Of a stretch of 28,917 bases of DNA, positions 1 through 28,917 are shown piece by piece. The DNA is from Thermoleophilaceae bacterium (GTDB lineage Bacteria > Actinomycetota > Thermoleophilia > Solirubrobacterales > Thermoleophilaceae). Position 1 is the first letter of the stretch, and each line of letters begins with the position of its first letter. Where the stretch lies: contig JBJMLJ010000270.1 in the NCBI GenBank assembly GCA_045805365.1, positions 1 through 28,917 on the forward strand. The letters are read 5' to 3'. The notes below the pieces were generated by a model, which made no database searches, had not been told where the DNA came from, and saw only the letters and a program-made list of their open reading frames with translations. Both the position numbers and the translations under genes were made by a program.

Positions 1-103
1 GAAGCCGGCGACGGCTAGGAATGCTGCGGTGCTCGCCGGGCCAACGCCCCGGCTGCGCTCCTCGCTTGCGCCCCATTACTCCGGTGTGAGAGATTCGCGC
101 GCC

Positions 104-1036
104 GTGAGCGGCGATTCGAAGACCGCGTTCCTCCTGCCCGGCCAGGGCTCCCAGAAGGTCGGGATGGCGGCCAAGCTGCGTGAGACCGACGCCGACCTGG
201 TCGACGGCTACCTGAAGCGCGCGGACGAGGCCTCGGGCCTCGACGTGAGCCAGTTCGTCGACGAGGGCCCGATGGAGATGCTCACCCGGACCGACGTCGC
301 CCAGCCGGCGCTCTTCTCGATCTCGATGGCGGTCGTGGAGGTGGCCCGCGAGCGAGGGCTGCGCGCCGACTTCGTCGCCGGCCACAGCCTCGGCGAGTAC
401 ACGGCGGCCGCCGTCTCGGGAGCGCTGGACGTCGACGACGCCTTGCCGCTCGTCTGCGAGCGCGGCCGGCTGATGGCGGCGATCCAGTCGGAGCGGCCTG
501 GCGCGATGGCGGCGATCATCGGGCTGGGCCGCGAGCAGGTCGAGGAGCTCTGCTCGCGGGCGTCGGAGGCCGGGTTGGTCGCCCCCGCGAACATCAACTC
601 CGACAGCCAGATCGTCGCTTCGGGCGAGGAGGGCGGGATCGAGAGGCTGATCGAGCTCGCCGAGGAGGCCGGCGCGAAGCGGGCGCTGCGGCTCCAGGTT
701 GGAGCCGCCTTCCACAGCGAGCTGATGAAGCCGGTCCAGGAGAAGCTCGCCGCGAGGATGGAGGGCCTCACCTGGCGGGACCCCGAGCCCCCGCTCGTGG
801 CCAACTGCTCGGGCGAGGTCGTCAGCACCGGCGACGGCGTCCGTGAGGCGCTCATCACCCAGATCGCCAGCCCGGTCCTCTGGGTCGACTGCGTGCGGAC
901 CCTGCGCCAGGCGGGCGTGAATACCTTCGTCGAGCTCGGCCCTGGCCGGGTGCTGACCGGCCTGGTGCGCCAGATCGACCCCGAGGCCGAGCTGGTGAAC
1001 GCGGACTCGCGGGAAGCCCTGGCTCCCAGCGCCTAG
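104..1036 (+). CDS. fabD: Malonyl-CoA:ACP transacylase (FabD/MCAT)
   Basis: Motifs LLPGQGSQ, TDVAQPAL, catalytic GHSLGEY, AFHS and ELGPG. Start moved from 29 to the in-frame GTG at 104 (VSGDSKTAFLLPGQG), matching the usual FabD N-terminus. Confidence 0.95.
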   Translation: MSGDSKTAFLLPGQGSQKVGMAAKLRETDADLVDGYLKRADEASGLDVSQFVDEGPMEMLTRTDVAQPALFSISMAVVEVARERGLRADFVAGHSLGEYTAAAVSGALDVDDALPLVCERGRLMAAIQSERPGAMAAIIGLGREQVEELCSRASEAGLVAPANINSDSQIVASGEEGGIERLIELAEEAGAKRALRLQVGAAFHSELMKPVQEKLAARMEGLTWRDPEPPLVANCSGEVVSTGDGVREALITQIASPVLWVDCVRTLRQAGVNTFVELGPGRVLTGLVRQIDPEAELVNADSREALAPSA

Positions 1037-1979: not shown

Positions 1980-2327
1980 TCAGCCCTCAGAGTCGGATGC
2001 GTCCCAACTGTAGAACTCACGCGCTTGGGCGTCCTTCGGGGACTTCCACGTCTCGGGGTTGTACGGCGTGATGTACGCGTCGAGCTTGCGGCTGATCTCC
2101 TGGAACAGGGGGTGATTGCGTACCTCGTCGACCGTCTCGCCGAACTCGGTGTCCATTTCCACGTAGTGGACGTAGATGTCATCCAGCACGAAGAGGCTCC
2201 GGTGCCGCACCTTGGCGAGCCCCGGGAGGTCGCTCTCGTCCGATTGCTCGAACAGCTTGGCGACCTCGTCCTCCGAGCCCGGCTTGATGCGGGCGATGAT
2301 GCAGCCTCGCTGGACGCCGTCAGCCAT
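1980..2327 (-). CDS. Polyketide cyclase, TcmI / WhiE-ORFVII family
   Basis: IIARIKPGSEDEVAKLFEQSD...RHRSLF...YITPYNPETWKSPKDAQAREFYSW follows the TcmI-family pattern as I recall it. Confidence 0.92.
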   Translation of the reverse strand: MADGVQRGCIIARIKPGSEDEVAKLFEQSDESDLPGLAKVRHRSLFVLDDIYVHYVEMDTEFGETVDEVRNHPLFQEISRKLDAYITPYNPETWKSPKDAQAREFYSWDASDSEG

Positions 2328-2784
2328 TCTTCGCGGCCTCCTCCAGGCGCTCCTTGATGACGCCCATCTGCTCCTTGGTGCTCTTGTTCATGTACTCCTC
2401 GGCGGTCGCATCGTCCGCGGGGGCGTCCGGCTTCATCGAGAAGTCCTGGACCCAGCGCATCTTGGTGGAGCCGTCCTCCTCCTCGAAGTACCACTCGATG
2501 TTCATGTACTCGAAGGGGCCGGTCTCGATCCGGCGTGACTTCGACTGGTAGTTCGCCGGGTCGGCCTCGCGCTCGGACACCCAGCTCCAGACCTGGCCGT
2601 CGTACTCCGGGTCCGGGTGGGTGGTCAGCCGGAACTTGACCTTGTTTTCGCCCTCCTCTTCGATCACCTCCGCCTTCGCGTACTCGCTGAAGAGGTTGGG
2701 CCAGCTCTCGATGTCCATCATCCGCTCCCACACGAAGTCGCGCGGGGCTTCGATGACCACCTCGTTGTCGGTGTGCGCGGCCAT
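2320..2784 (-). CDS. Aromatase/cyclase, SRPBCC fold, TcmN-N / WhiE-ORFVI family
   Basis: MAAHTDNEVVI..WPNLFSEY..VWSWVSER..ETGPFEYMNI.W..RWVQDF closely follows the recalled WhiE-ORFVI/TcmN aromatase sequence. Confidence 0.95.
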   Translation of the reverse strand: MAAHTDNEVVIEAPRDFVWERMMDIESWPNLFSEYAKAEVIEEEGENKVKFRLTTHPDPEYDGQVWSWVSEREADPANYQSKSRRIETGPFEYMNIEWYFEEEDGSTKMRWVQDFSMKPDAPADDATAEEYMNKSTKEQMGVIKERLEEAAKNG

Positions 2785-2787
2785 TGG

Positions 2788-3048
2788 CTACTCCTTCTCC
2801 GCCAGCCGGCGGTTGGTGTACTCGATCGCCTGTCCCACGGTCGTGATCTCCGAGGCGTCCTCGTCCGGGATCTCGAAGCCGTAGTCCTGCTGCATGGCGA
2901 GCTGGATCTCGACGAACGCCAGCGAGTCGAGGCCCATATCCTCGAAGCTGGCTTCGGGGTCGTTCGTCACGCTGTCCTCCGGGAGCCCGACGCGCTCCAC
3001 CAGGATCCGCTTGAGATCATCGAAGGTGAACTGCCGGTCCACTGACAT
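2788..3048 (-). CDS. Acyl carrier protein of the type II PKS
   Basis: 86 aa, acidic, GLDSL phosphopantetheine site; GGAGG RBS at 3056-3060 on the minus strand. Confidence 0.95.
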   Translation of the reverse strand: MSVDRQFTFDDLKRILVERVGLPEDSVTNDPEASFEDMGLDSLAFVEIQLAMQQDYGFEIPDEDASEITTVGQAIEYTNRRLAEKE

Positions 3049-3060
3049 AGGCGTGCCTCC

Positions 3061-4833
3061 TTAGGTTGGGACTCCGGTTTGGTGTTGCGGCTTGGCCAGG
3101 GCCTTCAAAGTCGGTAGCTGCTCCTCGATCGCCTCCCGGCCGGCCGCCAGGAAGAGGTCGGCGAGGTGGAAGTCGCGCCAGCTCCCAGGGCCGAAGCGGG
3201 GGTGGAGCACGACGTCCGCAAGCTCCGCGTGCCTGATGCTGCCGTCCTGCGCGGAGAGGTCGTTGACCTCGAGGATCGTCTCGAGCATGCGCGTGCCCTG
3301 CTTCTTCTCCTCCTGGGGCGGAGGCGGCTCCAGCCCCGGCCAGGCGGGCAGGCTCTCGCGCGGCATCAGGTTCATGGAGACGACCACGTCGGCGCCCGCC
3401 TCGTAGGCCGCTCCGCTCGGCACCGGGACGAGCGCCAGCCCATCCACGAGCCGATGGCCCTCCATCTCGTACGGGGGGGCCATGCCGGCCAGCGCAGTGG
3501 CCGCCATCAGCGCCTCCCACAGGGGGCCGTCGCTGATCGGCGATGGGCGCCGCTCGGTCAGGTCGACCGCCATCGCCACCAGCGGGATCACGAGGTCGTC
3601 GAAGGTGCCGTTGTTGGTGGTGTCGCGGAACACCTGCTCGATCGTCTCCAGGCCCTTTGACGCACCCGCGAGGGTGAGCGTGAACAGCTCAGCCACGTTG
3701 TCGGGGTTGAACGCCTCGCGCAGGGTGCGGTCGACCTCTGACGAGTCCATGCCCATCGCCAGGTAGGCGCCGGCGATCGCGCCGATGCTGCTGCCGGCCA
3801 CGTAGTCGACTACGTAGCCCTCGCGCTCGAGACCCTGCAGCAAGCCCACGTGCGCGTAGCCCTTCGCCCCGCCCGCGCCGAGCGCCAGACCCAGCTTCGT
3901 GCGGGCCAGATGGCGGCCGAGCCAGGCCACGTCCTCCGGCGGGAGCGACCCGTTGTCCCTGCCGATCGAGCGGATCACCGGCAGGCCGGCGACCATGCGG
4001 CCGCGCTCGCGACCGCGCTGCTCCTCGACGAGCACGAGCTCGACGCGCCGACCCTCGAGCTCCTCCATTTGCGCGACGCTGGCGGCGTCCGGCTCGCCGT
4101 CGGCCAGAACGACGATCCGGTCGGTGTGCTCCCCGAGCTGCTGAGCGGAGCGGCCCTCGGCCCGCGCCGCCACCACGACCGTGCCGTGCCTCTCCAGCAT
4201 CTGGTCGATCCGCGCGACGGCCTCGTGGAAGCCCGTGCGCGTGTCGAGCCAGTCGACCTTGCGCGGGCTGGCCTTGCCGGCGGCCTCCACGACCTGCGGG
4301 ACGAGGTCGGCCAGGGAGCTGCTGAAGATCAGCCCGACGGCCTCGCCGCTCGACTCCTCCTCGGTCGCGCCCTGGTACGCGCGCAGCAGGCGACGCCGCA
4401 TGATCTTCGTGAAGTTGACGACGATCCCCGGGTGCTCCTCCATGAGCCGCTCGAAGTCCTTGCGCGACATCTCGAGCGCGCTCACATAGGAGCTGGCCAC
4501 CACCGTGACCGTGTGCCGGTCGCCCGTGACGAGCGACGTCGCCCCGATCACGTCGCCACGGCGCTGCTTGGACACCACGCGCTGGTCACCGGTCCCCGGC
4601 ATCGCCTGCGCCACTCCCTCGACGATCAGGAACATCGTCTCCCCGCGCTTGCCGGCACGCGAGATCTCGGCGCCGGGCGGGAAGCTGACCGGCTGCATCC
4701 GCTCCGAGATCCGGGCGAGCGCGTCGGTGTCCAGGCCGTCGAAGAGGGTGCACTGCTCGAGCGCGGCGAACGGCGACAGCGCGCCCGCCATCGACATCGA
4801 GGACATCAGCCGGTCGGTGGGGATCTCAGGCAT
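3061..4833 (-). CDS. cNMP-binding domain + patatin-like serine hydrolase (NTE-like architecture)
   Basis: N-terminal CAP-type fold (FPPGAEISRAG...MFLIVEG...GDVIG); C-terminal patatin motifs GAGGAKG, GSSIG and DGL. Start moved from 5070 to the ATG at 4833, which overlaps the ligase stop by 8 nt. Confidence 0.9.
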   Translation of the reverse strand: MPEIPTDRLMSSMSMAGALSPFAALEQCTLFDGLDTDALARISERMQPVSFPPGAEISRAGKRGETMFLIVEGVAQAMPGTGDQRVVSKQRRGDVIGATSLVTGDRHTVTVVASSYVSALEMSRKDFERLMEEHPGIVVNFTKIMRRRLLRAYQGATEEESSGEAVGLIFSSSLADLVPQVVEAAGKASPRKVDWLDTRTGFHEAVARIDQMLERHGTVVVAARAEGRSAQQLGEHTDRIVVLADGEPDAASVAQMEELEGRRVELVLVEEQRGRERGRMVAGLPVIRSIGRDNGSLPPEDVAWLGRHLARTKLGLALGAGGAKGYAHVGLLQGLEREGYVVDYVAGSSIGAIAGAYLAMGMDSSEVDRTLREAFNPDNVAELFTLTLAGASKGLETIEQVFRDTTNNGTFDDLVIPLVAMAVDLTERRPSPISDGPLWEALMAATALAGMAPPYEMEGHRLVDGLALVPVPSGAAYEAGADVVVSMNLMPRESLPAWPGLEPPPPQEEKKQGTRMLETILEVNDLSAQDGSIRHAELADVVLHPRFGPGSWRDFHLADLFLAAGREAIEEQLPTLKALAKPQHQTGVPT

Positions 4834-6136
4834 GGAGGGCGGCGCGGTCGGGCTTGCCCGAGGCCAGCAGCGGCAGCTCGGGCACGATTTCGATCTCGTA
4901 GGGCAGCTTGTAGCCGGCGATCCGCTCGCGGGCGAAGTGCAACAGGTCGGCCGGCGCCAGGTCGGCCTCGGTGACGACGAAGGCCTTGAGCGCCTCGCCC
5001 ATGCGCTCGTTGGGAACGGCGACGACGGCCGCCTGGCGGACGTCTGGATGCGTGAGCAGGCAGCCCTCAACCTCGGCCGGGAAGACGTTGAAGCCGCCGA
5101 CGTGCGCGACCTCCTTGGCCCGCCCGGAGATGTGGACGTTGCCGTCCTCGTCGATCGAGCCGAGGTCGCCGGTCCGGAACCAGTCGCCGTCGAAGGCCTC
5201 GGCGGTCAGCTCGGGCTTGCGGAAGTAGCCGGGGGTGACGCCCGGGCCGCGCACCTGGATCTCCTCGCGCTCTACGCGGAACTCGAAGCCGGGCAGCGGG
5301 CGGCCCACCGAGCCGTGGCGCACCTCCGGCGGGTCGTCGGGCCGGCAGCTGGCCGCGGCGCCCAGCTCGGTCATCCCGAAGAGGTTGAGGATCCTGGCGC
5401 CGGCGTCGTCCAGGCGCCCGAGCAGCTCGGCGGGGCAGACCGCCCCGGCGACGAAGCCGCCGCGCAGCCGGGGCGGGAGCGCCCGCAGCAGGCCAGCGAA
5501 GAGCGTGGGGGAGCCGTGGACGATCGTCGCCTCGGGGTCGATGCCGTCGAGGGCGAGGCCCGGCTCGAGCATCTGGACGCGCGCACCCGCGTGAAGCCCG
5601 GCGAGCAGCGCGGCGAGGCCGAAGGCATGGGAGGCGGGCACGGGAAGGGCGATCACGTCGTCCTCGCTCAGCTCGAGGACGCCGGCCAGCACCTCCGCCT
5701 GGTCGGCCAGCGCCGCCCGCGTGACCAGCGCGCCCTTGGGCTCGCCGGTCGTGCCGGAGGTGTAGAGGATCGCGCCGACGTCCGGATCACACGGCTCTGT
5801 GTCCTCTGCCACCTGTCCTATGCCGTCCTGGCCGAGCACGAGCCACGGCAGCTCGCTTCCCCTCGCGAACTCGGCGAACGAGTAGCCCCGATGCTCCGCG
5901 ACCGACAGGACGAGCGCCGGGTCGGCGTCCGTGAGTATTCGGCCGAGGTCGTACTCGCGCAGCCGCGCGCTCAGGGGAACGGGGACCGCGCCCGCCCTCC
6001 AGGCGGCGAGCAGCGCCGTTCGGAGCAGCGGTTCGTTGGGCGCGACGATCGCCACGCGGGCGCCGTGGCCGGGGAGCCTGGCCGCCAGCTCTTCGACTGC
6101 GGCGGAGTCCTGGCCGAGGTCCGCGAGGTCCAGCAT
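4826..6136 (-). CDS. AMP-dependent acyl-CoA/acyl-ACP ligase (ANL superfamily)
   Basis: YTSGTTGEPKG, FGMTE, FRTGDLG, GRAKE and YKLP motifs; short N-terminus (436 aa). Confidence 0.92.
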   Translation of the reverse strand: MLDLADLGQDSAAVEELAARLPGHGARVAIVAPNEPLLRTALLAAWRAGAVPVPLSARLREYDLGRILTDADPALVLSVAEHRGYSFAEFARGSELPWLVLGQDGIGQVAEDTEPCDPDVGAILYTSGTTGEPKGALVTRAALADQAEVLAGVLELSEDDVIALPVPASHAFGLAALLAGLHAGARVQMLEPGLALDGIDPEATIVHGSPTLFAGLLRALPPRLRGGFVAGAVCPAELLGRLDDAGARILNLFGMTELGAAASCRPDDPPEVRHGSVGRPLPGFEFRVEREEIQVRGPGVTPGYFRKPELTAEAFDGDWFRTGDLGSIDEDGNVHISGRAKEVAHVGGFNVFPAEVEGCLLTHPDVRQAAVVAVPNERMGEALKAFVVTEADLAPADLLHFARERIAGYKLPYEIEIVPELPLLASGKPDRAALHA

Positions 6137-6143
6137 CAGGGCC

Positions 6144-7418
6144 TCAGCCCGCGCGCCGAAGGACCAGCGCGCTGTTGAAACCGCCGTACCCGCGAGCGTT
6201 CACGAGCACGGTCCCGATCGCGGCCTTGCGGGCAGAGCCCGTGATGAAGTCGAGGCCGTCGCAGCCCTCCGCCGGCTCGTCGAGGTTGATCGTCGGCGGG
6301 ATCACGCCGTCGCGCATGGACAGCATCGCGGCGGCCACGTCGAGCGACGCCCCGCCGGCGTAGAGCCGGCCGGTCATCGACTTGGGCGCCGTAACCGGGG
6401 TGTCTGATGCACCCTTGCCGAAGACCTTCTTTATCGCCTGCGCCTCGAGCTTGTCCCACTCGGGGATGCCGGCGCCGTCGGCGAAGATCGCATCCACGTC
6501 GCCGGGGCCGATGCCGGCGTCGTCCAGCGCGATCTGCATCGCGCTCGCGAGACGACGGCCGTCCGGCGCCGGCTCGCCCCAGTGGTAGCCGTCGCTCGTG
6601 GCGCCGTAGCCGAGGACCTCGGCGTAAACCTGCGGCGCCCCGCGCTCTTTGGCGGTCGACTCGTTCTCGGCGATCACGATGGCGCCGCCCTCGCCCGGCA
6701 CGTAGCCATTGGCGGCGCTGTCGAAGGGCCGGAACGCCTGATCGGGATCGGTCTCGGTGCTCAGGTAGCCGTTCTCGAGCTGGCAGGTCAGGGCGTAGGG
6801 GCCGATCGGCGCCTCGAGCCCACCGCTGACGACGAAGTCGACGCCGCGCCGGATCGTGCGCCGGGAGTGTTGGACGGCCTCGAGGCCGCCGGCGCCCTCG
6901 GCGAGCACGACGCCGCACGGGCCCTTCATGTTGTGCTTGATCGAGATCTGGCCGGTGGTGGCGGCGTAGAACCAGGCGATCGACTGGTAGGCGCCGACGA
7001 AGCCCGGCCCCTTGCCCCAGAGGTTCTGGATCTCCTTCTGGCCGAAGTCGTTGCCGCCGGACGAGCTGGCCGTGATGACACTCATCGAGTAGGGGTCGTG
7101 GTCCTCGGGGTTGAAGTCGGCGTCCTCCAGCGCCATCTGCGTGGCGCCGAGGGCCATCCAGGTCCAGCGATCGGTCTGGACCATGAGCCGCTTGTCGATG
7201 TACTGCTCGGGGTCGAAGCCGTTGACCTCGCCGGCGAGCTGGGCCTCGTAGCGGGACGGGTCGAACTTGGTGATCCGCCCGATCGCGTTCTTGCCCTCGC
7301 ACGCCGCCTTCCACCAGGCCTCCGTGCCGATGCCGCCCGGCGCCACCACGCCGAGGCCGGTCAGGACCATCTTGCGGTCCCGCGAGGGGAGGCTCGTGCG
7401 CGGCGCCGAGGCCTCCAT
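6144..7418 (-). CDS. Type II PKS chain-length factor (KS-beta), WhiE-like
   Basis: VLTGLGVVAPGG, QTDRWT, FGQKEIQNLW, YQSIAWFYAATTGQISI and GPCGVV motifs; no active-site Cys. True start is the ATG at 7418, coupled to KS-alpha by a TGATG overlap. Confidence 0.95.
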   Translation of the reverse strand: MEASAPRTSLPSRDRKMVLTGLGVVAPGGIGTEAWWKAACEGKNAIGRITKFDPSRYEAQLAGEVNGFDPEQYIDKRLMVQTDRWTWMALGATQMALEDADFNPEDHDPYSMSVITASSSGGNDFGQKEIQNLWGKGPGFVGAYQSIAWFYAATTGQISIKHNMKGPCGVVLAEGAGGLEAVQHSRRTIRRGVDFVVSGGLEAPIGPYALTCQLENGYLSTETDPDQAFRPFDSAANGYVPGEGGAIVIAENESTAKERGAPQVYAEVLGYGATSDGYHWGEPAPDGRRLASAMQIALDDAGIGPGDVDAIFADGAGIPEWDKLEAQAIKKVFGKGASDTPVTAPKSMTGRLYAGGASLDVAAAMLSMRDGVIPPTINLDEPAEGCDGLDFITGSARKAAIGTVLVNARGYGGFNSALVLRRAG

Positions 7419-8779
7419 CAGGCGCTGACCTCCATCAGCTCGGGCGGGCGGGCGAGGATCATGGCCGACTGGAAGCCCCCGAACCCGCTGGCGGTCGACA
7501 GCGCGCAGTCGATCTGGCCCCGGCGCGCCTCGTTCGGCGTGTAGTCGAGGTCGCACTCGGGGTCGCGGTTCTCCCAGTTCGCGGTGGGCGGCACGATCCC
7601 GCGGTCGATGGCCAGCGCGCAGGTGGCCATCTCAATCGCCCCGATCGCACCGAGCGAGTGGCCGATCATCGACTTGATCGAGCTGATCGGGACGTTGTAG
7701 GCGTGGTCGCCTAGCGAGTTCTTGTAGGCGGCGGTCTCGTGCCGGTCGTTCTGCTTGGTGCCCGAGCCGTGGGCGTTGATGTAGTGGATGTCATCGGGCT
7801 GCGTGCCGCCCTGGCGCATGGCGTCCTCGATCGCGTCCGTCATCTCCGTCGCGTCCGGCTTCAGGCCGGTCATGTGGTAGGCGTTGCCGCGGCTGGCGAA
7901 GCCCGTGACCTCGCAGTAGATGTGCGCGCCGCGATCCAGGGCGCGGTCGAGGTCCTCCAGTATCAGCACCGCGCCGCCCTCGCCCATCACGAAGCCGTCG
8001 CGATCGCGGTCAAAGGGGCGCGAGGCGTGCCCCGGGTCGTCGTTGCGCCGGGAGGTCGCCTTGATCGGGTCGAAGCAGGCCATCGAGATCGGCGAGACCG
8101 GGGATTCCGCCGCGCCGGAGATGACGATGTCGGCCTCGCCGTCCTGAATCAGCTGGTGGCCGTACCCGATGGCGTCGATGCCCGACGTGCAGCCGGTCGA
8201 GATCACCGTGGCGGGTCCGTGAGCGCCGAACTTGACCGCCACCTCGCTGGCCAGGCTGCTCGGGATCAGGCCGGCGTAGAGGAAGGGCACGGCGTAGTCG
8301 GGATCCACGAGCCAATCGCGGCCGCGGTCGCTGGTGGCGATGTAGCCGTCCTCCAGGACCATTGTGCCGCCCACCGCCGAGCCGAGCGTGACGCCCATCC
8401 GGTCGCGGTCGATGTCCTCGAGCACGAGGGTGAGCGACTGCTCGCGGGCAACGGGGATCATCCGCGACGCCGTCCGATCCTCCTCCTCGATCAGGAGGGC
8501 GGCGTCGTTCATCGCCTCCATAGCGGCCACGGCGGCGAACTGGATGTACCGGTCCATCCGCCGTGTCTCCTGCTCGGTGAGGCCCGAGGCGATCGGGTCG
8601 AAGTCGGCCTCGGCGGCGATCTGAGAGCGGAAGCCGGCGGGGTCGAAGAAGGTGATCTGCCGGGTCGATGTCTTCCCGGCGGTGATCGTGTCCCAGAACT
8701 CGTCGCGGGTCACTCCACCCGGGGCGACCACGCCGACGCCGGTGACGGCCGTCCGCCTAAGACCTGCGTCGTTCCCCAC
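7418..8779 (-). CDS. Type II PKS ketosynthase alpha
   Basis: STGCTSGIDAIG (catalytic Cys), YINAHGSGTKQND, KSMIGHSLGAIG and FGGFQSA motifs; GTG start. Confidence 0.97.
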   Translation of the reverse strand: MGNDAGLRRTAVTGVGVVAPGGVTRDEFWDTITAGKTSTRQITFFDPAGFRSQIAAEADFDPIASGLTEQETRRMDRYIQFAAVAAMEAMNDAALLIEEEDRTASRMIPVAREQSLTLVLEDIDRDRMGVTLGSAVGGTMVLEDGYIATSDRGRDWLVDPDYAVPFLYAGLIPSSLASEVAVKFGAHGPATVISTGCTSGIDAIGYGHQLIQDGEADIVISGAAESPVSPISMACFDPIKATSRRNDDPGHASRPFDRDRDGFVMGEGGAVLILEDLDRALDRGAHIYCEVTGFASRGNAYHMTGLKPDATEMTDAIEDAMRQGGTQPDDIHYINAHGSGTKQNDRHETAAYKNSLGDHAYNVPISSIKSMIGHSLGAIGAIEMATCALAIDRGIVPPTANWENRDPECDLDYTPNEARRGQIDCALSTASGFGGFQSAMILARPPELMEVSA

Positions 8780-8782
8780 GCG

Positions 8783-9187
8783 CTATTCGGTGTCCACGTG
8801 CCCCAGCGGGGGCTCCGGGGCGAGCGGACTGAGATGGAAGACGATGAAGGCCTCCTCATCGCCCTCGTTGCGGAGGCGGTGTCTCATGTTCATCGGGACC
8901 ATCATGCCGCTGCTCTCCTTGACCTCGTGCGGCTCGTCGTCGAGGTCGGCGGTGATCGTGCCCCGGACGCAGTAGATGAACTCCTCCGAGTAGGGGTGGT
9001 AGTGCTCGGAGATCCGGTCGCCCGGCGCGATCGTCGCCACCCCCATGAAGCCGGAGGTCGAGCCGACCGTCTTGGGGCTCAGCAGGGTCTGGACCACCCC
9101 GCCACGGCGGGTGTCCTCGGCCGCCTCCTCCCTGGAGAAAAAGCCGGCGTCGCGTTCTGCCTTGGGGTGCTCGGTCTGCTCTGGCAT
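8783..9187 (-). CDS. Cupin-fold polyketide cyclase, TcmJ / WhiE-ORFII / CurC family
   Basis: RRGG...[17 protein letters not shown]...[15 protein letters not shown] is the family signature; first gene of the PKS operon. Confidence 0.93.
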
Positions 9188-10091: not shown

Positions 10092-10952
10092 CTATTCGGT
10101 CTGGCCGAGCCGCTCGAGCCGGGCGCGCACCACCTGGTCGAAGTCCCCGGTGGTGCCGAGCGAGCCGGCCACGACGTCGCGGAAGGTGTCTCGCTCCATG
10201 GCGAGCAGCTTGGTGGGCTCAGCCGCCCTGAGCGTCGAGTTACGAGGCGTATCGCGCATGATCGAGATCTCGCCGTGGAGCTCGCCCGGCCCGAGTGAGC
10301 CGACCTGCTCGTCGTCCCGCAGGACGTCGACCTTGCCCTCGACCACGATGAAGAACTTGTCGGCGGGGGCTCCCTCGCGGACGATCACCTCGCCCGCGTC
10401 GGCCTCCATGCTCTGGAGCTCGCCGCTGATCGTCTCCTCGACGTCCTCCGGCAGCTCGTCGTAGACGTTGAGGACGGTCTCACGGTCGTAGTCGACCCCG
10501 AACTCCTCGCTCGACTTCTCGCCGCTGCCCCTGGAGTTGTCGATGAACTCGAGCTGGGTGGGGACGATCTTCATGAAGTAGATGCCCACGGTGGAGCGGC
10601 CGGCCGCAAGGGTCGGGAACTTGCCGCCGAACAGGAAGGCGGCGCGCGCGATCTCCTCGCCGTCGAGGACGACCCCGCATTCCCCGTTGGCCTGGATCCC
10701 CTTCGTCTGGCGCCAGTCCTCGGAGTACTCGTCGATCGCCAGCGAGACGAACGGGTTCTGCTGGACGTGCTTGGCGGTGATCGTCTCCGGCCGCACCCAG
10801 AGGTACATCGTGGGGCCGCGGTTGACGTAGAGGAAGGTCGCGGCACGCGGAACGCCGCCCGCGGAGGCGGTCGCGAGCGTCAGGGTCTGCTGCTGCTCCA
10901 GGTAGTCGAGCACGTGCTGTGGCAGCTCCAGGGCTGCCTTGTCTTCAGCCAT
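10092..10952 (-). CDS. PNPOx-like split-barrel domain fused to a cNMP-binding domain
   Basis: N-terminal TLTLATASAGGVPRAA...KHVQQNPFVSLAID; C-terminal GEVIVREGAPADKFFIVVEG...GELHGE...PRNSTLRA. Start moved to the ATG at 10952, which follows a GGAGAGGAGG RBS. Confidence 0.85.
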   Translation of the reverse strand: MAEDKAALELPQHVLDYLEQQQTLTLATASAGGVPRAATFLYVNRGPTMYLWVRPETITAKHVQQNPFVSLAIDEYSEDWRQTKGIQANGECGVVLDGEEIARAAFLFGGKFPTLAAGRSTVGIYFMKIVPTQLEFIDNSRGSGEKSSEEFGVDYDRETVLNVYDELPEDVEETISGELQSMEADAGEVIVREGAPADKFFIVVEGKVDVLRDDEQVGSLGPGELHGEISIMRDTPRNSTLRAAEPTKLLAMERDTFRDVVAGSLGTTGDFDQVVRARLERLGQTE

Positions 10953-11061
10953 TCGCGTGCCTCCTCTCCTTCTCGATCGAAGGCGCACGCTATCGCAGGT
11001 TGCGGCCCCCGGCAGGACGCGAATAGTCTCGCCCGACTGTCGACCTGGGATGGAGTGAACC

Positions 11062-11799
11062 TTGGATTTGGGACTGAGCGGCAAGAGGGCGGTTGTGACC
11101 GGCGGCTCGCGGGGGATCGGCCGCGCGATCGTGCTCGGGCTGGCGGAGGGCGGGGCGTCGGTTGCCGCCTGCTTCAACCGCGAGTCCGACGACGTCAAGC
11201 AGCTGCGCGGCGAGCTCGAGCAGATCGAGGGCGAGAGCTACCTGACCCAGGCGGATGTGTCCGACCCGGATTCGGCGACGGGGTTCGTCGGCGAGGCAGC
11301 GGGCAAGTTCGGCGGACTCGACATCCTCGTCAACAACGCCGGGGTCGTCAGCCATCAGATGATCCAGGACCTCTCGCTCGAGGAGTGGCACCGCGTCATC
11401 GACGTCAACCTCACCGCGATCTTCCTGATCTCGAAGGCCGCGCTGCCTCACATGGGCGAGGGCGGCTCGATCGTGAACATCACCTCAGCGGTAGCGATGC
11501 GCGGCATGCCGGCCCGGACGCACTACATCTCGTCCAAGGCCGGGCTGATCGGGTTCACGCGCGCCCTGTGCAAGGAGGTCGGCAAGGACGGCATCCGCGT
11601 GAACGCGCTGGCCCCCGGGATCATCGAGACCGACCAGACGGCCGGCCTGGACGAGGCCGGCCGCGCCCGCTACTCGGGCCTGGCCGCCCTGAACCGGCTC
11701 GGGCAGTCGGAGGAGATCGCCACCGTGGCGTTGTTCCTGGCCAGCGACCTGGCGAGCTTCGTCTCGGGCGTGACCCTGAACGTGGACGGCGGGATCTAG
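11062..11799 (+). CDS. SDR ketoreductase, resembling BenL/PdmG/FdmO-type polyketide KRs
   Basis: TGGSRGIG, NNAG, YxxxK (HYISSK) and VDGG motifs. MDLGLSGKRAVV start, VSH and RTHY resemble pentangular-polyketide KRs from memory. Confidence 0.88.
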   Translation: MDLGLSGKRAVVTGGSRGIGRAIVLGLAEGGASVAACFNRESDDVKQLRGELEQIEGESYLTQADVSDPDSATGFVGEAAGKFGGLDILVNNAGVVSHQMIQDLSLEEWHRVIDVNLTAIFLISKAALPHMGEGGSIVNITSAVAMRGMPARTHYISSKAGLIGFTRALCKEVGKDGIRVNALAPGIIETDQTAGLDEAGRARYSGLAALNRLGQSEEIATVALFLASDLASFVSGVTLNVDGGI

Positions 11800-26720: not shown

Positions 26721-28511
26721 ATGAGTAGCGATCGAAGCAAGTCCATCGTCGAGATGGGGGCGGTTCGGGCGCCCGGCGACCGCTACGACGTGGCGATCTT
26801 GGGCGGTGGGCTAGCCGGCCTGACGCTCGCGATTCAGCTCAAGCAGGCGCGGCCGGATACAAGCGTGTTGGTGCTCGAGAAGCGCGAGGGTCCTGCTCCG
26901 CTCGCCGCGTTCAAGGTGGGCGAATCGACGGTCCCGAGCGGCGCCCATTACTTCGCGGACGTCGTCGGCATGAGCGATCACCTCCACAACGAACAATTGA
27001 TCAAGTGCGGCCTGCGCTACTTCCCTCCGGGCGACGGCAACCGCGACATCACCAAGCGACCCGAGATGGGTCCCCCAGGATTCCCGCCACACGACAACTA
27101 CCAGATAGACCGTGGGCTGTTTGAGAACAAGCTCGCCGCTCGCGCCCGCGCGCTAGGTGTGGAAGTGGCGCAGGGCTCACGCGTCGGCGAGGTGACCTTC
27201 GGGGATGACGTCCATAGCATTGCGTTCCAACACTTCGGCGATGATGCGACGACATCCGCGCGGTGGGTGGTAGACGCGACTGGTCGTGCCTCATTGCTAA
27301 AGCGCAAGCTGGGGCTCGAGAGGGATTGCGGACACCACATCAACTCGTCTTGGTTCCGCCTCGCCGGCGGCCTCGACATCGAGGACTGGGGCCGCGAAGA
27401 CGACGAGTGGATGGGCGCGGTAAGCCAACCGGGGATTCGCAAATTCAGCACCAATCACCTTCTCGGCGAGGGCTACTGGATCTGGATGATCCCTCTCTCA
27501 TCGGGGCCGATCAGCATCGGCGTGTGCGCCGATCCGCGGTTTCACCCGTTCGAGCGGATCGACACATTCGACGGCCTGCTCGACTGGCTTCGCGAGCACG
27601 AACCGCCGCTGGCCGAGTCGGTCGAGGGTCGCGTCGAAGACATCGAGGACTTTCTGCGTGTGGAGGACTTCGCCTACGGCGTCGAGCGGATCCTCTCGCC
27701 GGAGCGGTGGGCTCTGGTCGGCGAGGCGGGGGCGTTTACGGACCCGTTTTACTCGCCGGGCTCGGACTTCATCTGCTACAGCAACACATTCACCAGCGAG
27801 GTGATCAAGCGAGACCTCGACGGAGAGGACATCAGCGACCGTCTGACTTACTACGACGACCTCTACCAGCGCGCGTTCGAGCACACGATTTCGAGGTACC
27901 AAGACAGTTACACGATCTTCGGTAATGCATGGGTTGCATGCGGGCTGCTTGTCTGGGACTTCTACGCGAACCACTGTGGACTCGTTCTATGCACGGTTAA
28001 GAACAAGCTGACGGATTTCGAGTTCATGAAGAGCGTCGACTCGGAGCTCGATTCCCTGTTCCGGCTGAACATCAACATGCACAAGCTCTTCCGCGAGTGG
28101 CACGAGCTCGAGAACAAGGAGCGCCCGCCCGCATTCATCAAGCCATTCCCAATCCTGGTCGGCGGCTTGCTCGGCTTGACCAAGGACTATCCCGACGACG
28201 ACGCCATCCGTGAGGAGCTGCGCACGCAGGTTCGCAATTCAGAGGCGTTGGCGGTGGCGATGTTCCATCGGGCCGCGAGCGCTCTGCCGGAGCCACCGTC
28301 CCCGGACAAGGCGGTGAACCCGTACGCGGTCGGCTTGGATCCTGACAAGTGGGACGCGGACGGACTATTCGAAGCGCCCGGCCTGACGCTTGCGGAGGCG
28401 AAGGAGATCGCCGCCGGGGTCGACGCCATCTGGGATGACTCGGTCAACCCGTTCGCAGGTGCCGCGCCCCCCGGCGGCGGACCGCCTGCCGGCGTCGGAC
28501 CGCCCGCTTAG
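26721..28511 (+). CDS. Flavin-dependent halogenase
   Basis: GGGLAG, KVGEST, candidate catalytic Lys in QLIKCG, WIWMIP (WxWxIP) and FTDPFYSPG; C-terminal PPGGGPPAGVGPPA tail. Confidence 0.85.
   Translation: MSSDRSKSIVEMGAVRAPGDRYDVAILGGGLAGLTLAIQLKQARPDTSVLVLEKREGPAPLAAFKVGESTVPSGAHYFADVVGMSDHLHNEQLIKCGLRYFPPGDGNRDITKRPEMGPPGFPPHDNYQIDRGLFENKLAARARALGVEVAQGSRVGEVTFGDDVHSIAFQHFGDDATTSARWVVDATGRASLLKRKLGLERDCGHHINSSWFRLAGGLDIEDWGREDDEWMGAVSQPGIRKFSTNHLLGEGYWIWMIPLSSGPISIGVCADPRFHPFERIDTFDGLLDWLREHEPPLAESVEGRVEDIEDFLRVEDFAYGVERILSPERWALVGEAGAFTDPFYSPGSDFICYSNTFTSEVIKRDLDGEDISDRLTYYDDLYQRAFEHTISRYQDSYTIFGNAWVACGLLVWDFYANHCGLVLCTVKNKLTDFEFMKSVDSELDSLFRLNINMHKLFREWHELENKERPPAFIKPFPILVGGLLGLTKDYPDDDAIREELRTQVRNSEALAVAMFHRAASALPEPPSPDKAVNPYAVGLDPDKWDADGLFEAPGLTLAEAKEIAAGVDAIWDDSVNPFAGAAPPGGGPPAGVGPPA
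28467..28505 (+). repeat. Coding PPGGGPPAGVGPP tail of the halogenase
   Basis: ccc ccc ggc ggc gga ccg cct gcc ggc gtc gga ccg ccc, one codon before the stop. Confidence 0.8.
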
Positions 28512-28575: not shown

Positions 28576-28917
28576 GTGCCGCAGCCCACTCTGGCCATTG
28601 TGCAGGGCACCGACGCAGGGCGCGAATTCTTATTGACGGGTACGACCGTGGTTGGCCGTGATCCCGGCGCCGACGTCGTCATCGCGGATTCCGAGATCTC
28701 CACCAAGCACGCCGCATTCGATCTCGTCGACAGTGGCATCGCCGTGCAGGATCTCGGCTCGACCAACGGCACGTTTGTAAACGGCCAGCGCGTGACGGGT
28801 TCGCAACCGCTCCAGCCGGGAGACCGGATCCAGCTCGGAACGACCGTGGTGGAGGTGCAGTGGCCGGTCCAGACCACCGCTGAACAAGTGGGCAGTCCCC
28901 CCAATCTTCAGGCCACC
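28576..28917 (+). CDS. FHA-domain protein, 5' part only (runs off the window; absent from the ORF track)
   Basis: Hand translation from GTG 28576: ...TTVVGRDPGADVVIADSEISTKHAAF...QDLGSTNGTFVNGQRV...PGDRIQLG; open to the window end. Confidence 0.9.
   Translation, partial: MPQPTLAIVQGTDAGREFLLTGTTVVGRDPGADVVIADSEISTKHAAFDLVDSGIAVQDLGSTNGTFVNGQRVTGSQPLQPGDRIQLGTTVVEVQWPVQTTAEQVGSPPNLQAT

What the first reader, a model, noticed from the sequence alone, without database searches (positions are those of the whole stretch)
4826..7418. CLF lacks the Gln/Glu at the KS-Cys-equivalent site and is followed by a ligase: non-acetate starter predicted
Seen: the motif reads GPCGVVLAEGAGGLEA, with Gly at codon 6894-6896. 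Established: act-type CLFs read EQAGG, and this Gln is implicated in decarboxylating malonyl-ACP to the acetyl primer; as I recall, WhiE-type CLFs read DEAGG. The next gene is an ANL ligase; EncN (enterocin) and AuaE (aurachin) are precedents for ligase-primed type II PKSs. Inference: priming is delegated to the ligase. An alternative role is OxyH/SsfL2-like ATP-dependent ring closure.
Basis: partly seen in the sequence, partly recalled or inferred. Interest (0 to 1): 0.72.

Follow-up and report, generated by a model that had tools for sequence, protein, structure and literature searches.

The report
Glycine-type CLF with dedicated ligase
An uncultured soil actinobacterium's aromatic-polyketide synthase has glycine where textbook chain-length factors have glutamine and carries an acid-activating ligase inside its core operon, but the glycine is an old trait shared by many ligase-free clusters, so it does not by itself predict an unusual starter unit.

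Summary
CLF residue 175 (codon 6894-6896, GGC) is Gly and aligns without gaps to actinorhodin CLF Gln161 and to the FabF cysteine. The next gene is an intact ANL ligase.

The inference is not supported as argued. Gly, Ala or Ser at this column is the inherited state of several large CLF clades. All 80 related genome loci lack Gln, and about half have no ligase. Within the window's own all-Gly clade, three basal loci have neither ligase nor patatin, and four loci have lost only the ligase; the two of those four genomes that were searched whole hold no orthologue elsewhere. The Gly-type CLF of Streptomyces roseosporus belongs to a knockout-proven pigment PKS with no ligase, KSIII or acyltransferase within 10 kb.

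What is unusual is a 3-kb ligase plus cNMP-patatin insertion between CLF and ACP. It is conserved in more than 30 genomes while the tailoring genes vary, and ligase relatives down to 50% identity occur only in this context.

My best reading is a dedicated acyl-activation unit serving the ACP, most likely a starter module (about 0.35). Activation of the polyketide's own carboxylate is nearly as likely. The function is untested.

This scan found the same insertion earlier on other DNA (e1-5246005).

The parts
8783..9187 (-). TcmJ/WhiE-ORFII-type cupin, first gene of the core operon
   Evidence: Pfam Cupin_2 E 1.1e-16. Conserved directly upstream of KS in nearly all 80 related loci.
7418..8779 (-). 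KS-alpha, catalytically complete (Cys within GCTSG, which starts at residue 196; AHGSGT; GHSLG), with a 23-aa insertion at about residues 97-120
   Evidence: Pfam ketoacyl-synt and Ketoacyl-synt_C. Motifs located. The insertion occurs only in the window, L010 and L021.
6144..7418 (-). Chain-length factor (KS-beta), Gly-type
   Evidence: 1tqy_B act CLF E 4e-121. No Cys, and D/R at the two catalytic His columns.
6894..6896 (-). Codon GGC = Gly175, at the KS-Cys / act-CLF Gln161 column
   Evidence: Invariant in the 41-member clade.
4826..6136 (-). Dedicated ANL (acyl-CoA-ligase-type) adenylating enzyme, 436 aa, short N-terminus
   Evidence: Pfam AMP-binding plus AMP-binding_C. Motifs YTSGTTGEPKG (125), GMTE (254), TGDLG (322), GRAKE (338) and SGK (426-428) are present, and their key residues are invariant in 21 orthologues. 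AF2 model pLDDT 85. Homologues down to 50% identity always lie between CLF and patatin.
3061..4833 (-). cNMP-binding domain fused to a patatin-like Ser-Asp acyl hydrolase/transferase; its start overlaps the ligase stop by 8 nt (ATGCCTGA)
   Evidence: Pfam cNMP_binding and Patatin. GSSIG starts at 347 and DGL at 464. Best PDB match is PlpD patatin 5fqu, E 6e-19. Retained in loci that lost the ligase.
2788..3060 (-). The single ACP of the cluster (probable start ATG at 3048), DSL serine motif
   Evidence: Pfam PP-binding E 1.1e-13. GLDSLAF is invariant in 18 orthologues.
2320..2784 (-). TcmN/WhiE-ORFVI-type SRPBCC aromatase/cyclase
   Evidence: Pfam Polyketide_cyc and Polyketide_cyc2. Follows the ACP in all clade-A loci.
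1980..2327 (-). TcmI/WhiE-ORFVII-type cyclase
   Evidence: Pfam Cyclase_polyket E 4.3e-37.
2..1036 (+). Cluster-encoded malonyl-CoA:ACP transacylase (FabD), 5' end outside the window
   Evidence: NCBIfam TIGR00128 fabD scores 290 bits against a cut-off of 261. Orthologues lie in many related loci.

Best explanation
The window holds the core of a whiE/pentangular-style type II polyketide synthase from an uncultured Thermoleophilia-type actinobacterium. Its gene order is cupin-KS-CLF-ligase-(cNMP)patatin-ACP-aromatase-TcmI cyclase. Gly175 of the CLF is an inherited, clade-wide state of a vestigial site. It carries no information on the starter unit, because Gly-type KS/CLF pairs evidently work without any ligase. 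The ligase is a separate, later addition. It is a catalytically intact acyl-CoA-ligase-type ANL enzyme of a subfamily found only in this context. It arrived together with, or just after, a cNMP-binding patatin, as a 3-kb insertion between CLF and ACP in one subclade, and some lineages lost it again. Inferred mechanism: the ligase adenylates a carboxylic acid and passes it on as a CoA (or ACP) thioester to the adjacent ACP/KS, most likely as a non-acetate starter. The patatin Ser-Asp enzyme then transfers acyl groups to the ACP or hydrolytically edits or releases them, under cyclic-nucleotide control. Shown here: residue identity, motif integrity, synteny, phylogenetic distribution and losses. 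Inferred: substrate, acceptor, and the priming role itself.
For: Gly is not diagnostic:
- All 80 genome loci related to this CLF lack Gln. They read E/D followed by G/A/S.
- The tree puts the window in an all-Gly clade of 41. Its basal members (L041, L046, L047) have CLF directly followed by ACP.
- A sister assemblage of 31 (Geodermatophilus, Microbacterium, Kineococcus, Amycolatopsis and others) is Gly/Ala/Ser with no adjacent ligase.
- No KSIII lies within 10 kb in any of the 80 loci.
- Four loci (L021, L023, L028, L035) run CLF then patatin with no ligase. The whole genomes of L021 and L023 hold no orthologue.
- S. roseosporus/filamentosus CLF P0465 reads VAEGAGGLDA. It lies in a cluster with no ANL, KSIII or AT within 10 kb. 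The gene order matches Orf3259-3267, whose KS+CLF deletion abolishes the red pigment (PMC9058172).

The ligase is a dedicated core component:
- The order CLF-LIG-PAT-ACP-ARO holds in 31 loci, while tailoring genes differ between them.
- Ligase homologues down to 50% identity (Blastocatellia L120, metagenome L121) sit in the same context.
- Intergenic gaps are tight or overlapping.
- Catalytic motifs are invariant in 21 orthologues.
- The ligase tree is broadly congruent with the CLF tree, which fits one gain followed by losses.
- The nearest characterised enzymes are all CoA ligases: FadD3, MenE, FadK, FadD13 and feruloyl-CoA synthase.
- Precedents for ligase-fed type II PKSs are EncN with the editing enzyme EncL, and AuaEII with AuaE (PMC12664062).
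Against: - No experiment exists, and no gene for making a special starter acid is in the conserved core.
- Natural ligase-less variants keep the patatin and the Gly-CLF, so the PKS does not strictly need the ligase.
- There is only one ACP and no KSIII or editing AT homologue.
- The cluster AT passes the fabD equivalog cut-off, so it looks like a plain malonyl transferase.
- The closest enzymes activate ring-bearing alkanoic acids (HIP, o-succinylbenzoate, ferulate). That fits a released polyketide acid as well as it fits a starter.
- Ligase and patatin evolve much faster than KS, CLF and ACP: window versus L010 is 55% and 62% against 85%, 79% and 81%.
- In Photorhabdus an in-cluster CoA ligase accompanies an acetyl-primed PKS (PMC6638757).
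Confidence: 0.38

Rival explanations
1. First reader's causal reading. Loss of Gln abolishes CLF-catalysed malonyl-ACP decarboxylation, so this PKS cannot self-prime and depends on the ligase for a non-acetate starter. On this reading the Gly is diagnostic.
For: Gly does occupy the Gln161 column, and the ligase is adjacent and intact. Gln is the commonest state in a phylum-wide sample of Streptomyces-type CLFs, at 11 of 21.
Against: Gly/Ala/Ser is clade-wide and predates the ligase. Seven loci of the same clade lack the ligase yet keep Gly, and two of those genomes have no orthologue. A Gly-CLF pigment PKS functions without a ligase in S. roseosporus (PMC9058172). AntE has Asp and is acetyl-primed (PMC6638757). 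WhiE-type CLFs have Glu. Both act CLF and this CLF lack the catalytic His pair. From memory, unchecked: known non-acetate-primed PKSs keep Gln, and Q161A act CLF still supports synthesis (Dreier and Khosla 2000).
Confidence: 0.08
2. Post-assembly role. The patatin hydrolyses the (partly cyclised) chain off the ACP. The ligase then re-activates the polyketide's terminal carboxylate as adenylate or CoA thioester for a final ring closure, or for ester or amide formation (OxyH/SsfL2/MtmL-like, or McbA-like amide synthetase).
For: The patatin is retained where the ligase is lost, so it has a ligase-independent job such as release. The nearest characterised ANLs act on bulky ring-bearing alkanoates (FadD3/HIP, MenE/OSB, feruloyl-CoA synthase), and the amide synthetase McbA is among the structural neighbours. 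There are no starter-acid genes in the conserved core. The ligase is dispensable in some lineages, as expected of a tailoring step.
Against: The ligase stays fixed inside the minimal-PKS operon while tailoring sets vary, which is unusual for tailoring genes. From memory, unchecked, oxyH, ssfL2 and mtmL are not placed between CLF and ACP. WhiE/Tcm-type fourth-ring closure uses the TcmI-type cyclase that is present here, and needs no ATP. No sequence comparison with OxyH, SsfL2 or MtmL was possible with these tools.
Confidence: 0.28
3. ACP-service role like Photorhabdus AntG. The ligase helps to make or charge holo-ACP (acyl-ACP synthetase or PPTase partner) for an otherwise acetate-primed PKS.
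For: The ant cluster combines a non-Gln CLF (Asp), an acetyl-primed octaketide and a CoA ligase whose omission lowers product 13-fold (PMC6638757). The ligase gene here lies close to the ACP gene.
Against: No PPTase gene is in the window. A dedicated FabD is present for malonyl loading. The sequence relation to AntG was not testable.
Confidence: 0.12
4. Extender supply. The ligase is a MatB-like malonyl-CoA synthetase that feeds the cluster FabD.
For: MatB structures are among the best PDB matches (E about 1e-47 to 1e-49, 31% identity). A cluster FabD is present.
Against: The NCBIfam malonyl-CoA synthase model scores 216 bits against a cut-off of 558. FadD3-type and long-chain models score higher. 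Feruloyl-CoA synthetase is the top PDB hit.
Confidence: 0.05

Closest known systems
Enterocin initiation module EncN (benzoate:ACP ligase) with EncL (AT-like editing thioesterase)
   Same: An ANL enzyme inside a type II PKS cluster, paired with a serine acyl-hydrolase/transferase-type protein acting on a single ACP. No KSIII is present (PMC12664062).
   Different: The partner here is a cNMP-binding patatin, not an AT homologue. There are no starter-acid biosynthesis genes. The ligase's nearest relatives are CoA ligases for alkanoates, not benzoate ligases. The ligase is naturally lost in some clusters. From memory, EncB keeps Gln. Nothing has been tested biochemically.
Photorhabdus anthraquinone PKS AntDE with CoA ligase AntG
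   Same: The CLF has a non-Gln residue at the Cys/Gln column, together with an in-cluster ANL ligase that boosts minimal-PKS output (PMC6638757).
   Different: AntE has Asp, not Gly. AntG works alongside a cluster PPTase (AntB), and no PPTase is found here. The ant system is Gram-negative, makes an octaketide and is acetyl-primed. Gene order differs.
WhiE spore-pigment PKS of Streptomyces and the S. roseosporus red-pigment whiE-like PKS
   Same: The same gene set: cupin, KS, CLF, ACP, TcmN-type and TcmI-type cyclases, ABM/SchA proteins. The S. roseosporus CLF is also Gly-type and 51% identical.
   Different: True whiE CLFs read DEAGG, with Glu. Neither system has a ligase or patatin between CLF and ACP.
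OxyH / SsfL2 / MtmL acyl-CoA-ligase homologues of tetracycline and aureolic-acid pathways
   Same: ANL enzymes in type II PKS clusters with a proposed ATP-dependent role in late ring closure.
   Different: Those pathways use different cyclase sets and Gln-type CLFs, and their ligase genes are not embedded between CLF and ACP (from memory).

Membership tests
Type II PKS chain-length factor (KS-beta) | KS-fold protein encoded immediately after, and paired with, a Cys-His-His KS-alpha | tested here: met
   1tqy_B E 4e-121. The KS-alpha gene shares one base with the CLF start. KS motifs GCTSG, AHGSGT and GHSLG are present.
Type II PKS chain-length factor (KS-beta) | Active-site Cys and catalytic His pair absent | tested here: met
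   G175 at the Cys column. D and R at the FabF His columns, the same as act CLF.
Gln-type ('KSQ-like') CLF as in act/tcm | Gln at the Cys-equivalent position (act Q161) | tested here: not met
   Gly175. The whole 41-member clade reads E-G.
ANL adenylate-forming superfamily (acyl-CoA-ligase type) | AMP-binding N-domain plus C-domain with core motifs A3, A5, A7, A8 and the A10 lysine | tested here: met
   Pfam hits above cut-offs. Motifs located. T126-S127-G128, E257, D324, R339 and K428 are invariant in 21 orthologues. Fold TM 0.8-0.87 to MenE, FadD3 and FscC.
EncN-type starter acid:ACP ligase module | Direct ATP-dependent loading of the starter acid on the PKS ACP | not testable with these tools
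   Needs an enzyme assay.
EncN-type starter acid:ACP ligase module | Cluster also encodes the route to the starter acid and an AT-like editing enzyme | tested here: not met
   No such genes in the conserved core. The only AT passes the fabD equivalog cut-off. The neighbouring hydrolase is a patatin, not an AT homologue.
MatB malonyl-CoA synthetase | Score above the NCBIfam NF005702 cut-off | tested here: not met
   216 bits against a cut-off of 558.
FadD3-family HIP-CoA ligase | Score above the NCBIfam NF005801 cut-off | tested here: not met
   266 bits against a cut-off of 657. Identity to Swiss-Prot FadD3 proteins is 29-31%.
OxyH/SsfL2/MtmL ring-closure ligases | Orthology to these proteins and co-occurrence with their partner cyclases | not tested
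KSIII-based initiation module (ZhuH/DpsC type) | FabH-like priming KS in the cluster | tested here: not met
   tblastn with the genome's own FabH found no hit at E < 1e-4 in any of the 80 related loci (+/-10 kb). No such Pfam domain was found among the window ORFs scanned.

The most novel reading that the evidence does not exclude
The ligase and the cNMP-binding patatin together form a new kind of type II PKS initiation module. The ligase makes an acyl-adenylate or acyl-CoA from a free acid. The patatin moves it onto the ACP or edits mis-primed ACP; it shares the FabD/lysophospholipase-like fold (recalled from SCOP, not tested here) and uses a Ser-Asp dyad. Cyclic nucleotide binding gates starter choice or chain release. 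This would be second-messenger control acting directly on a polyketide synthase.
Probability: 0.15. Interest if true: 0.75.

Novelty: new variant of a known kind. Interest (0 to 1): 0.42.

Why it matters
The result has two uses. First, it corrects a tempting genome-mining rule. A missing Gln in a CLF is not a marker for non-acetate priming. Small residues at that site characterise whole CLF clades, including a genetically proven pigment PKS. This also bears on the old question of what the CLF Gln actually does. Second, it points to an undescribed, widely conserved accessory pair, a dedicated ANL ligase plus a cNMP-patatin, wired into the minimal-PKS operon of soil Thermoleophilia and found in MAGs of other phyla. 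If the pair loads starters or releases chains under cyclic-nucleotide control, it would be a new handle for engineering aromatic polyketides. If it is a tailoring pair, it is a modest addition.

Tried and rejected
- Complex prediction, ligase (alignment A1) with ACP (A2): score 0.01, below the mark, so no verdict either way.
- Literature searches for Q161A/Gln161 and for the peptide motifs themselves returned nothing relevant. A search for patatin in type II PKS papers found no paper that holds both terms. The type II PKS catalogue PMC10132072 does not mention Gln, ligases or Thermoleophilia.
- A sample of 401 GTDB genomes of the same class held almost no CLF. Only G017 had one, and that copy looks degraded.
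- The last protein search, seeded with the Actinomadura macra CLF to look for named pentangular CLFs (PdmB, FdmG, GrhB and others), returned only generic names. I therefore could not place any chemically characterised, labelling-proven acetate-primed pentangular CLF at this column.
- Fold searches of the ligase model gave only generic ANL neighbours and no specificity call.
- I considered that the KS-alpha 23-aa insertion might dock the ligase. This is rejected: it occurs only in the window, L010 and L021, and L021 has no ligase.
- I considered that the short ligase N-terminus marks a pseudogene. This is rejected: it is shared by relatives at 73-98% identity, and the start has a GAGG 7 nt upstream.
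- TLN-05220, pradimicin and fredericamycin amide formation uses Asn-synthetase homologues, not ANLs, so they offer no precedent there.
Full report
**What is in the window**

The window has 65-74% G+C. It is contig C270 of a 3.4-Mb, 697-contig MAG. On the minus strand lies a tightly packed operon:
- cupin, 8783-9187
- KS-alpha, 7418-8779
- CLF, 6144-7418
- ANL ligase, 4826-6136
- cNMP-binding/patatin fusion, 3061-4833
- ACP, 2788-3060
- TcmN-type cyclase, 2320-2784
- TcmI-type cyclase, 1980-2327
- an FHA protein, 1033-1977

A FabD that passes the NCBIfam equivalog cut-off lies on the plus strand at 2-1036. Downstream are ABM proteins, a flavin reductase, a PNPOx-cNMP fusion, SDRs, a SchA/CurD protein, an amidohydrolase_2 protein, a P450 and FAD monooxygenases. 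This is a whiE/pentangular-style aromatic polyketide cluster. The nearest database proteins come from Thermoleophilaceae, Solirubrobacterales and Gaiellales MAGs.

**The observation**

The CLF motif GPCGVVLAEGAGGLEA is present, and Gly175 is codon 6894-6896 (GGC). HMMER aligns this stretch without gaps to act CLF (1tqy_B, E 4e-121). E174 pairs with E160 and G175 pairs with Q161. In the FabF alignments G175 pairs with the catalytic Cys.

The two catalytic His columns read D and R, as in act CLF. KS-alpha keeps Cys-His-His. The neighbouring gene is a complete ANL enzyme: it has both Pfam domains and motifs A3, A5, A7, A8 and the A10 lysine. Its start lies 7 nt after the CLF stop, behind a GAGG.

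**How common is Gly at this column, and does it travel with a ligase?**

Among the 120 nearest CLFs in the 5.8-billion-protein collection (68-99% identity), a motif match finds E-G in 97.

A scan of one genome per prokaryotic species returned 80 loci with up to 10-kb flanks. None has Gln. They read E/D followed by G, A or S.

A phylum-wide sample gives the contrast. It yielded 21 CLFs from 12 mostly Streptomyces-type genomes: 11 Gln, 5 Glu (DEAGG), 1 Gly, 1 Ala and 3 others.

Among 50%-identity cluster representatives of non-Cys KS-like proteins the column reads Q 18, R 17, G 16, A 7, S 6, E 5, T 4. A further clade, sampled from an Actinomadura seed, reads DG 46, DA 36, EG 17, DS 10, DT 7, with no Gln.

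**The CLF tree**

A CLF tree of 100 sequences rooted on KS-alpha puts the window in an all-Gly clade of 41 (support 97).
- Its basal members L041, L046 and L047 have CLF followed directly by ACP, with neither ligase nor patatin.
- The remainder mostly have CLF-ligase-patatin-ACP-ARO (31 loci).
- A separate clade of 31 (support 100: Geodermatophilus, Microbacterium, Kineococcus, Amycolatopsis, Micromonospora and others) is Gly/Ala/Ser-type and never has the ligase.
- Four loci inside the window's clade run CLF then patatin within 41-59 nt and have no ligase: L021, which groups with the window and L010 (support 99), plus L023, L028 and L035.
- The whole genomes of L021 and L023 have no match to the ligase at E <= 1e-40. 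That of L035 has only generic ANLs at 39% identity.
- No KSIII homologue lies within 10 kb of any of the 80 CLFs.

Gly therefore long predates the ligase and persists where the ligase is lost.

**A working Gly-type PKS without a ligase**

P0465, annotated as a Streptomyces filamentosus CLF, reads VAEGAGGLDA and is 51% identical to the window CLF. Its locus in GCA_000156695.2 reads FAD monooxygenase, SchA/CurD, KR, ABM, ACP, ARO-cupin, KS, CLF, then five unrelated genes, then a TcmI-type cyclase. There is no ANL, KSIII or AT within 10 kb.

This gene order matches Orf3267 (WhiE II), Orf3266 (KS), Orf3265 (CLF) and Orf3259 (WhiE VII) of S. roseosporus. Deleting Orf3265 and Orf3266 removed the red pigment (PMC9058172). 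The starter of that pigment is unknown, so this shows function without a ligase, not acetate priming.

Published precedents point the same way. Photorhabdus AntE has Asp at this column, its PKS makes acetyl-primed octaketides, and the cluster still contains a CoA ligase (AntG) whose omission lowers yield 13-fold (PMC6638757). A 2025 review ascribes acetate priming to malonyl decarboxylation after transfer to the KS cysteine (PMC12664062). From memory, unchecked here: Q161A act CLF retains activity (Dreier and Khosla 2000), and the classic non-acetate-primed PKSs keep Gln.

**What the ligase is**

It has no orthologue among curated families. The best NCBIfam models are FadD3 (266 bits against a 657 cut-off), long-chain ligase, and malonyl-CoA synthase (216 against 558). 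The best PDB sequence hits are feruloyl-CoA synthetase, MatB, oxalate-CoA ligase, FadD5/13 and MenE.

An AlphaFold2 model (pLDDT 85) is nearest to FadD3 HIP-CoA ligases (29-31% identity), MenE, FadK, FadD13 and feruloyl-CoA synthase in Swiss-Prot. In the PDB it is nearest to MatB, MenE, the aryl-acid enzymes FscC and CahJ, and the amide synthetase McbA. All of these are generic ANLs of the CoA-ligase type.

The 436-aa short N-terminus is shared by relatives at 73-98% identity, so it is a lineage feature and not a truncation. Catalytic residues are invariant across 21 orthologues.

Ligase homologues down to about 50% identity, including ones from a Blastocatellia MAG and a JGI metagenome, all lie in the same context, cupin-KS-CLF-LIG-patatin(-ACP-ARO). 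This is a subfamily dedicated to this PKS. The ligase tree is broadly congruent with the CLF tree, which fits one acquisition with later losses.

The seven-gene core is conserved while tailoring genes differ between loci. Ligase and patatin diverge faster than KS, CLF and ACP: window versus L010 is 55% and 62% against 85%, 79% and 81%.

The patatin has GSSIG (starting at 347) and DGL (starting at 464). It best matches PlpD.

**Mechanism**

The position inside the minimal-PKS operon, the tight coupling to the patatin and ACP genes, and independence from the tailoring set all argue for a role at the level of the ACP-bound chain. My preferred reading, at about 0.35-0.4, is that the ligase activates a carboxylic acid as a starter and the patatin transfers or edits it. 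This is functionally like EncN/EncL.

Three facts keep a nearly equal rival alive, at about 0.28: the ligase has been lost naturally, no starter-acid genes are present, and its nearest relatives act on ring-bearing alkanoates. In that rival the patatin releases the chain and the ligase re-activates its carboxylate for ring closure or conjugation.

An AntG-like ACP-service role (about 0.12) and MatB-like malonate activation (about 0.05) are less likely.

**Novelty**

I found no paper that describes a patatin in a type II PKS. This scan had already flagged the same ligase plus cNMP-patatin insertion in another genome (e1-5246005).

The finding as written (Gly, therefore ligase priming) is not supported. 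The residual novelty is a new variant of a known kind: a conserved accessory pair of unknown function in an otherwise ordinary whiE-like PKS, together with the demonstration that small residues at the CLF Gln site are widespread.

Noticed in passing
window 8420-8495 (KS-alpha residues about 97-120): The 23-aa insertion in KS-alpha occurs only in the window, L010 and L021 among about 100 KS-alpha sequences compared. L021 lacks the ligase, so the insertion is not tied to it.
   Followed up: partly
window 4826-6136: The ligase and its four closest relatives (73-98% identity) lack about 25-60 N-terminal residues that more distant orthologues (about 500 aa) have. The window's ligase is much more diverged from L010's (55%) than are the flanking CLF (79%) and KS (85%).
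   Followed up: partly
L114/L115 (G674:C36, about 6.4-8.9 kb and 20-22.2 kb): One Streptomyces-type contig carries two KS/CLF pairs about 12 kb apart. One has a Gln-type CLF (SEQAGGIDT) and the other a Gly-type CLF (SEGAGGLDA) followed by ACP and KR.
   Followed up: no
L116 (G694:C1:1183000-1203000): An Ala-type CLF (AEAAGGLDS) cluster in ARO-cupin-KS-CLF order is followed by a distant ANL (28% identity to the window ligase) and two extra KS-like genes. This may be a different kind of accessory module.
   Followed up: no
L117 (G017:C1:385000-405000), same order as the window's genome: This related cluster has the ligase-patatin layout and many of the same tailoring genes. The CLF and ligase matches cover only 61% and 50% of the queries, and no KS-alpha match was found. 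It may be a decaying copy or an assembly problem.
   Followed up: no
L023, L025, L032, L034, L035, L037, L120: Clusters of the window's CLF clade, most with the ligase and/or patatin layout (L025 and L037 are too short to tell), occur in MAGs labelled Acidobacteriota/Blastocatellia, Gemmataceae, Thermoguttaceae, Planctomycetaceae, delta proteobacterium and Chloroflexota, at 62-67% CLF identity. This means either horizontal transfer across phyla or mis-binning.
   Followed up: no
L121:10009-12104: In a metagenomic relative the core operon is followed by a stand-alone cNMP-binding protein and two metallophosphoesterases, which are possible cyclic-nucleotide phosphodiesterases. This adds to the cyclic-nucleotide theme (the window also has a PNPOx-cNMP fusion at 10092-11198).
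   Followed up: no
window 26721-28511 and 28576-28917: A 596-aa FAD protein with weak Trp_halogenase/FAD_binding_3 hits is a possible halogenase or monooxygenase. A second FHA-domain gene runs off the window's end.
   Followed up: no
proteins P0261, P0268, P0270, P0271 and others: Seventeen 50%-identity representatives of non-Cys KS-like proteins read D-R-A-S/G-G at the Cys column. This looks like a separate Arg-type CLF-like family that I did not identify.
   Followed up: no
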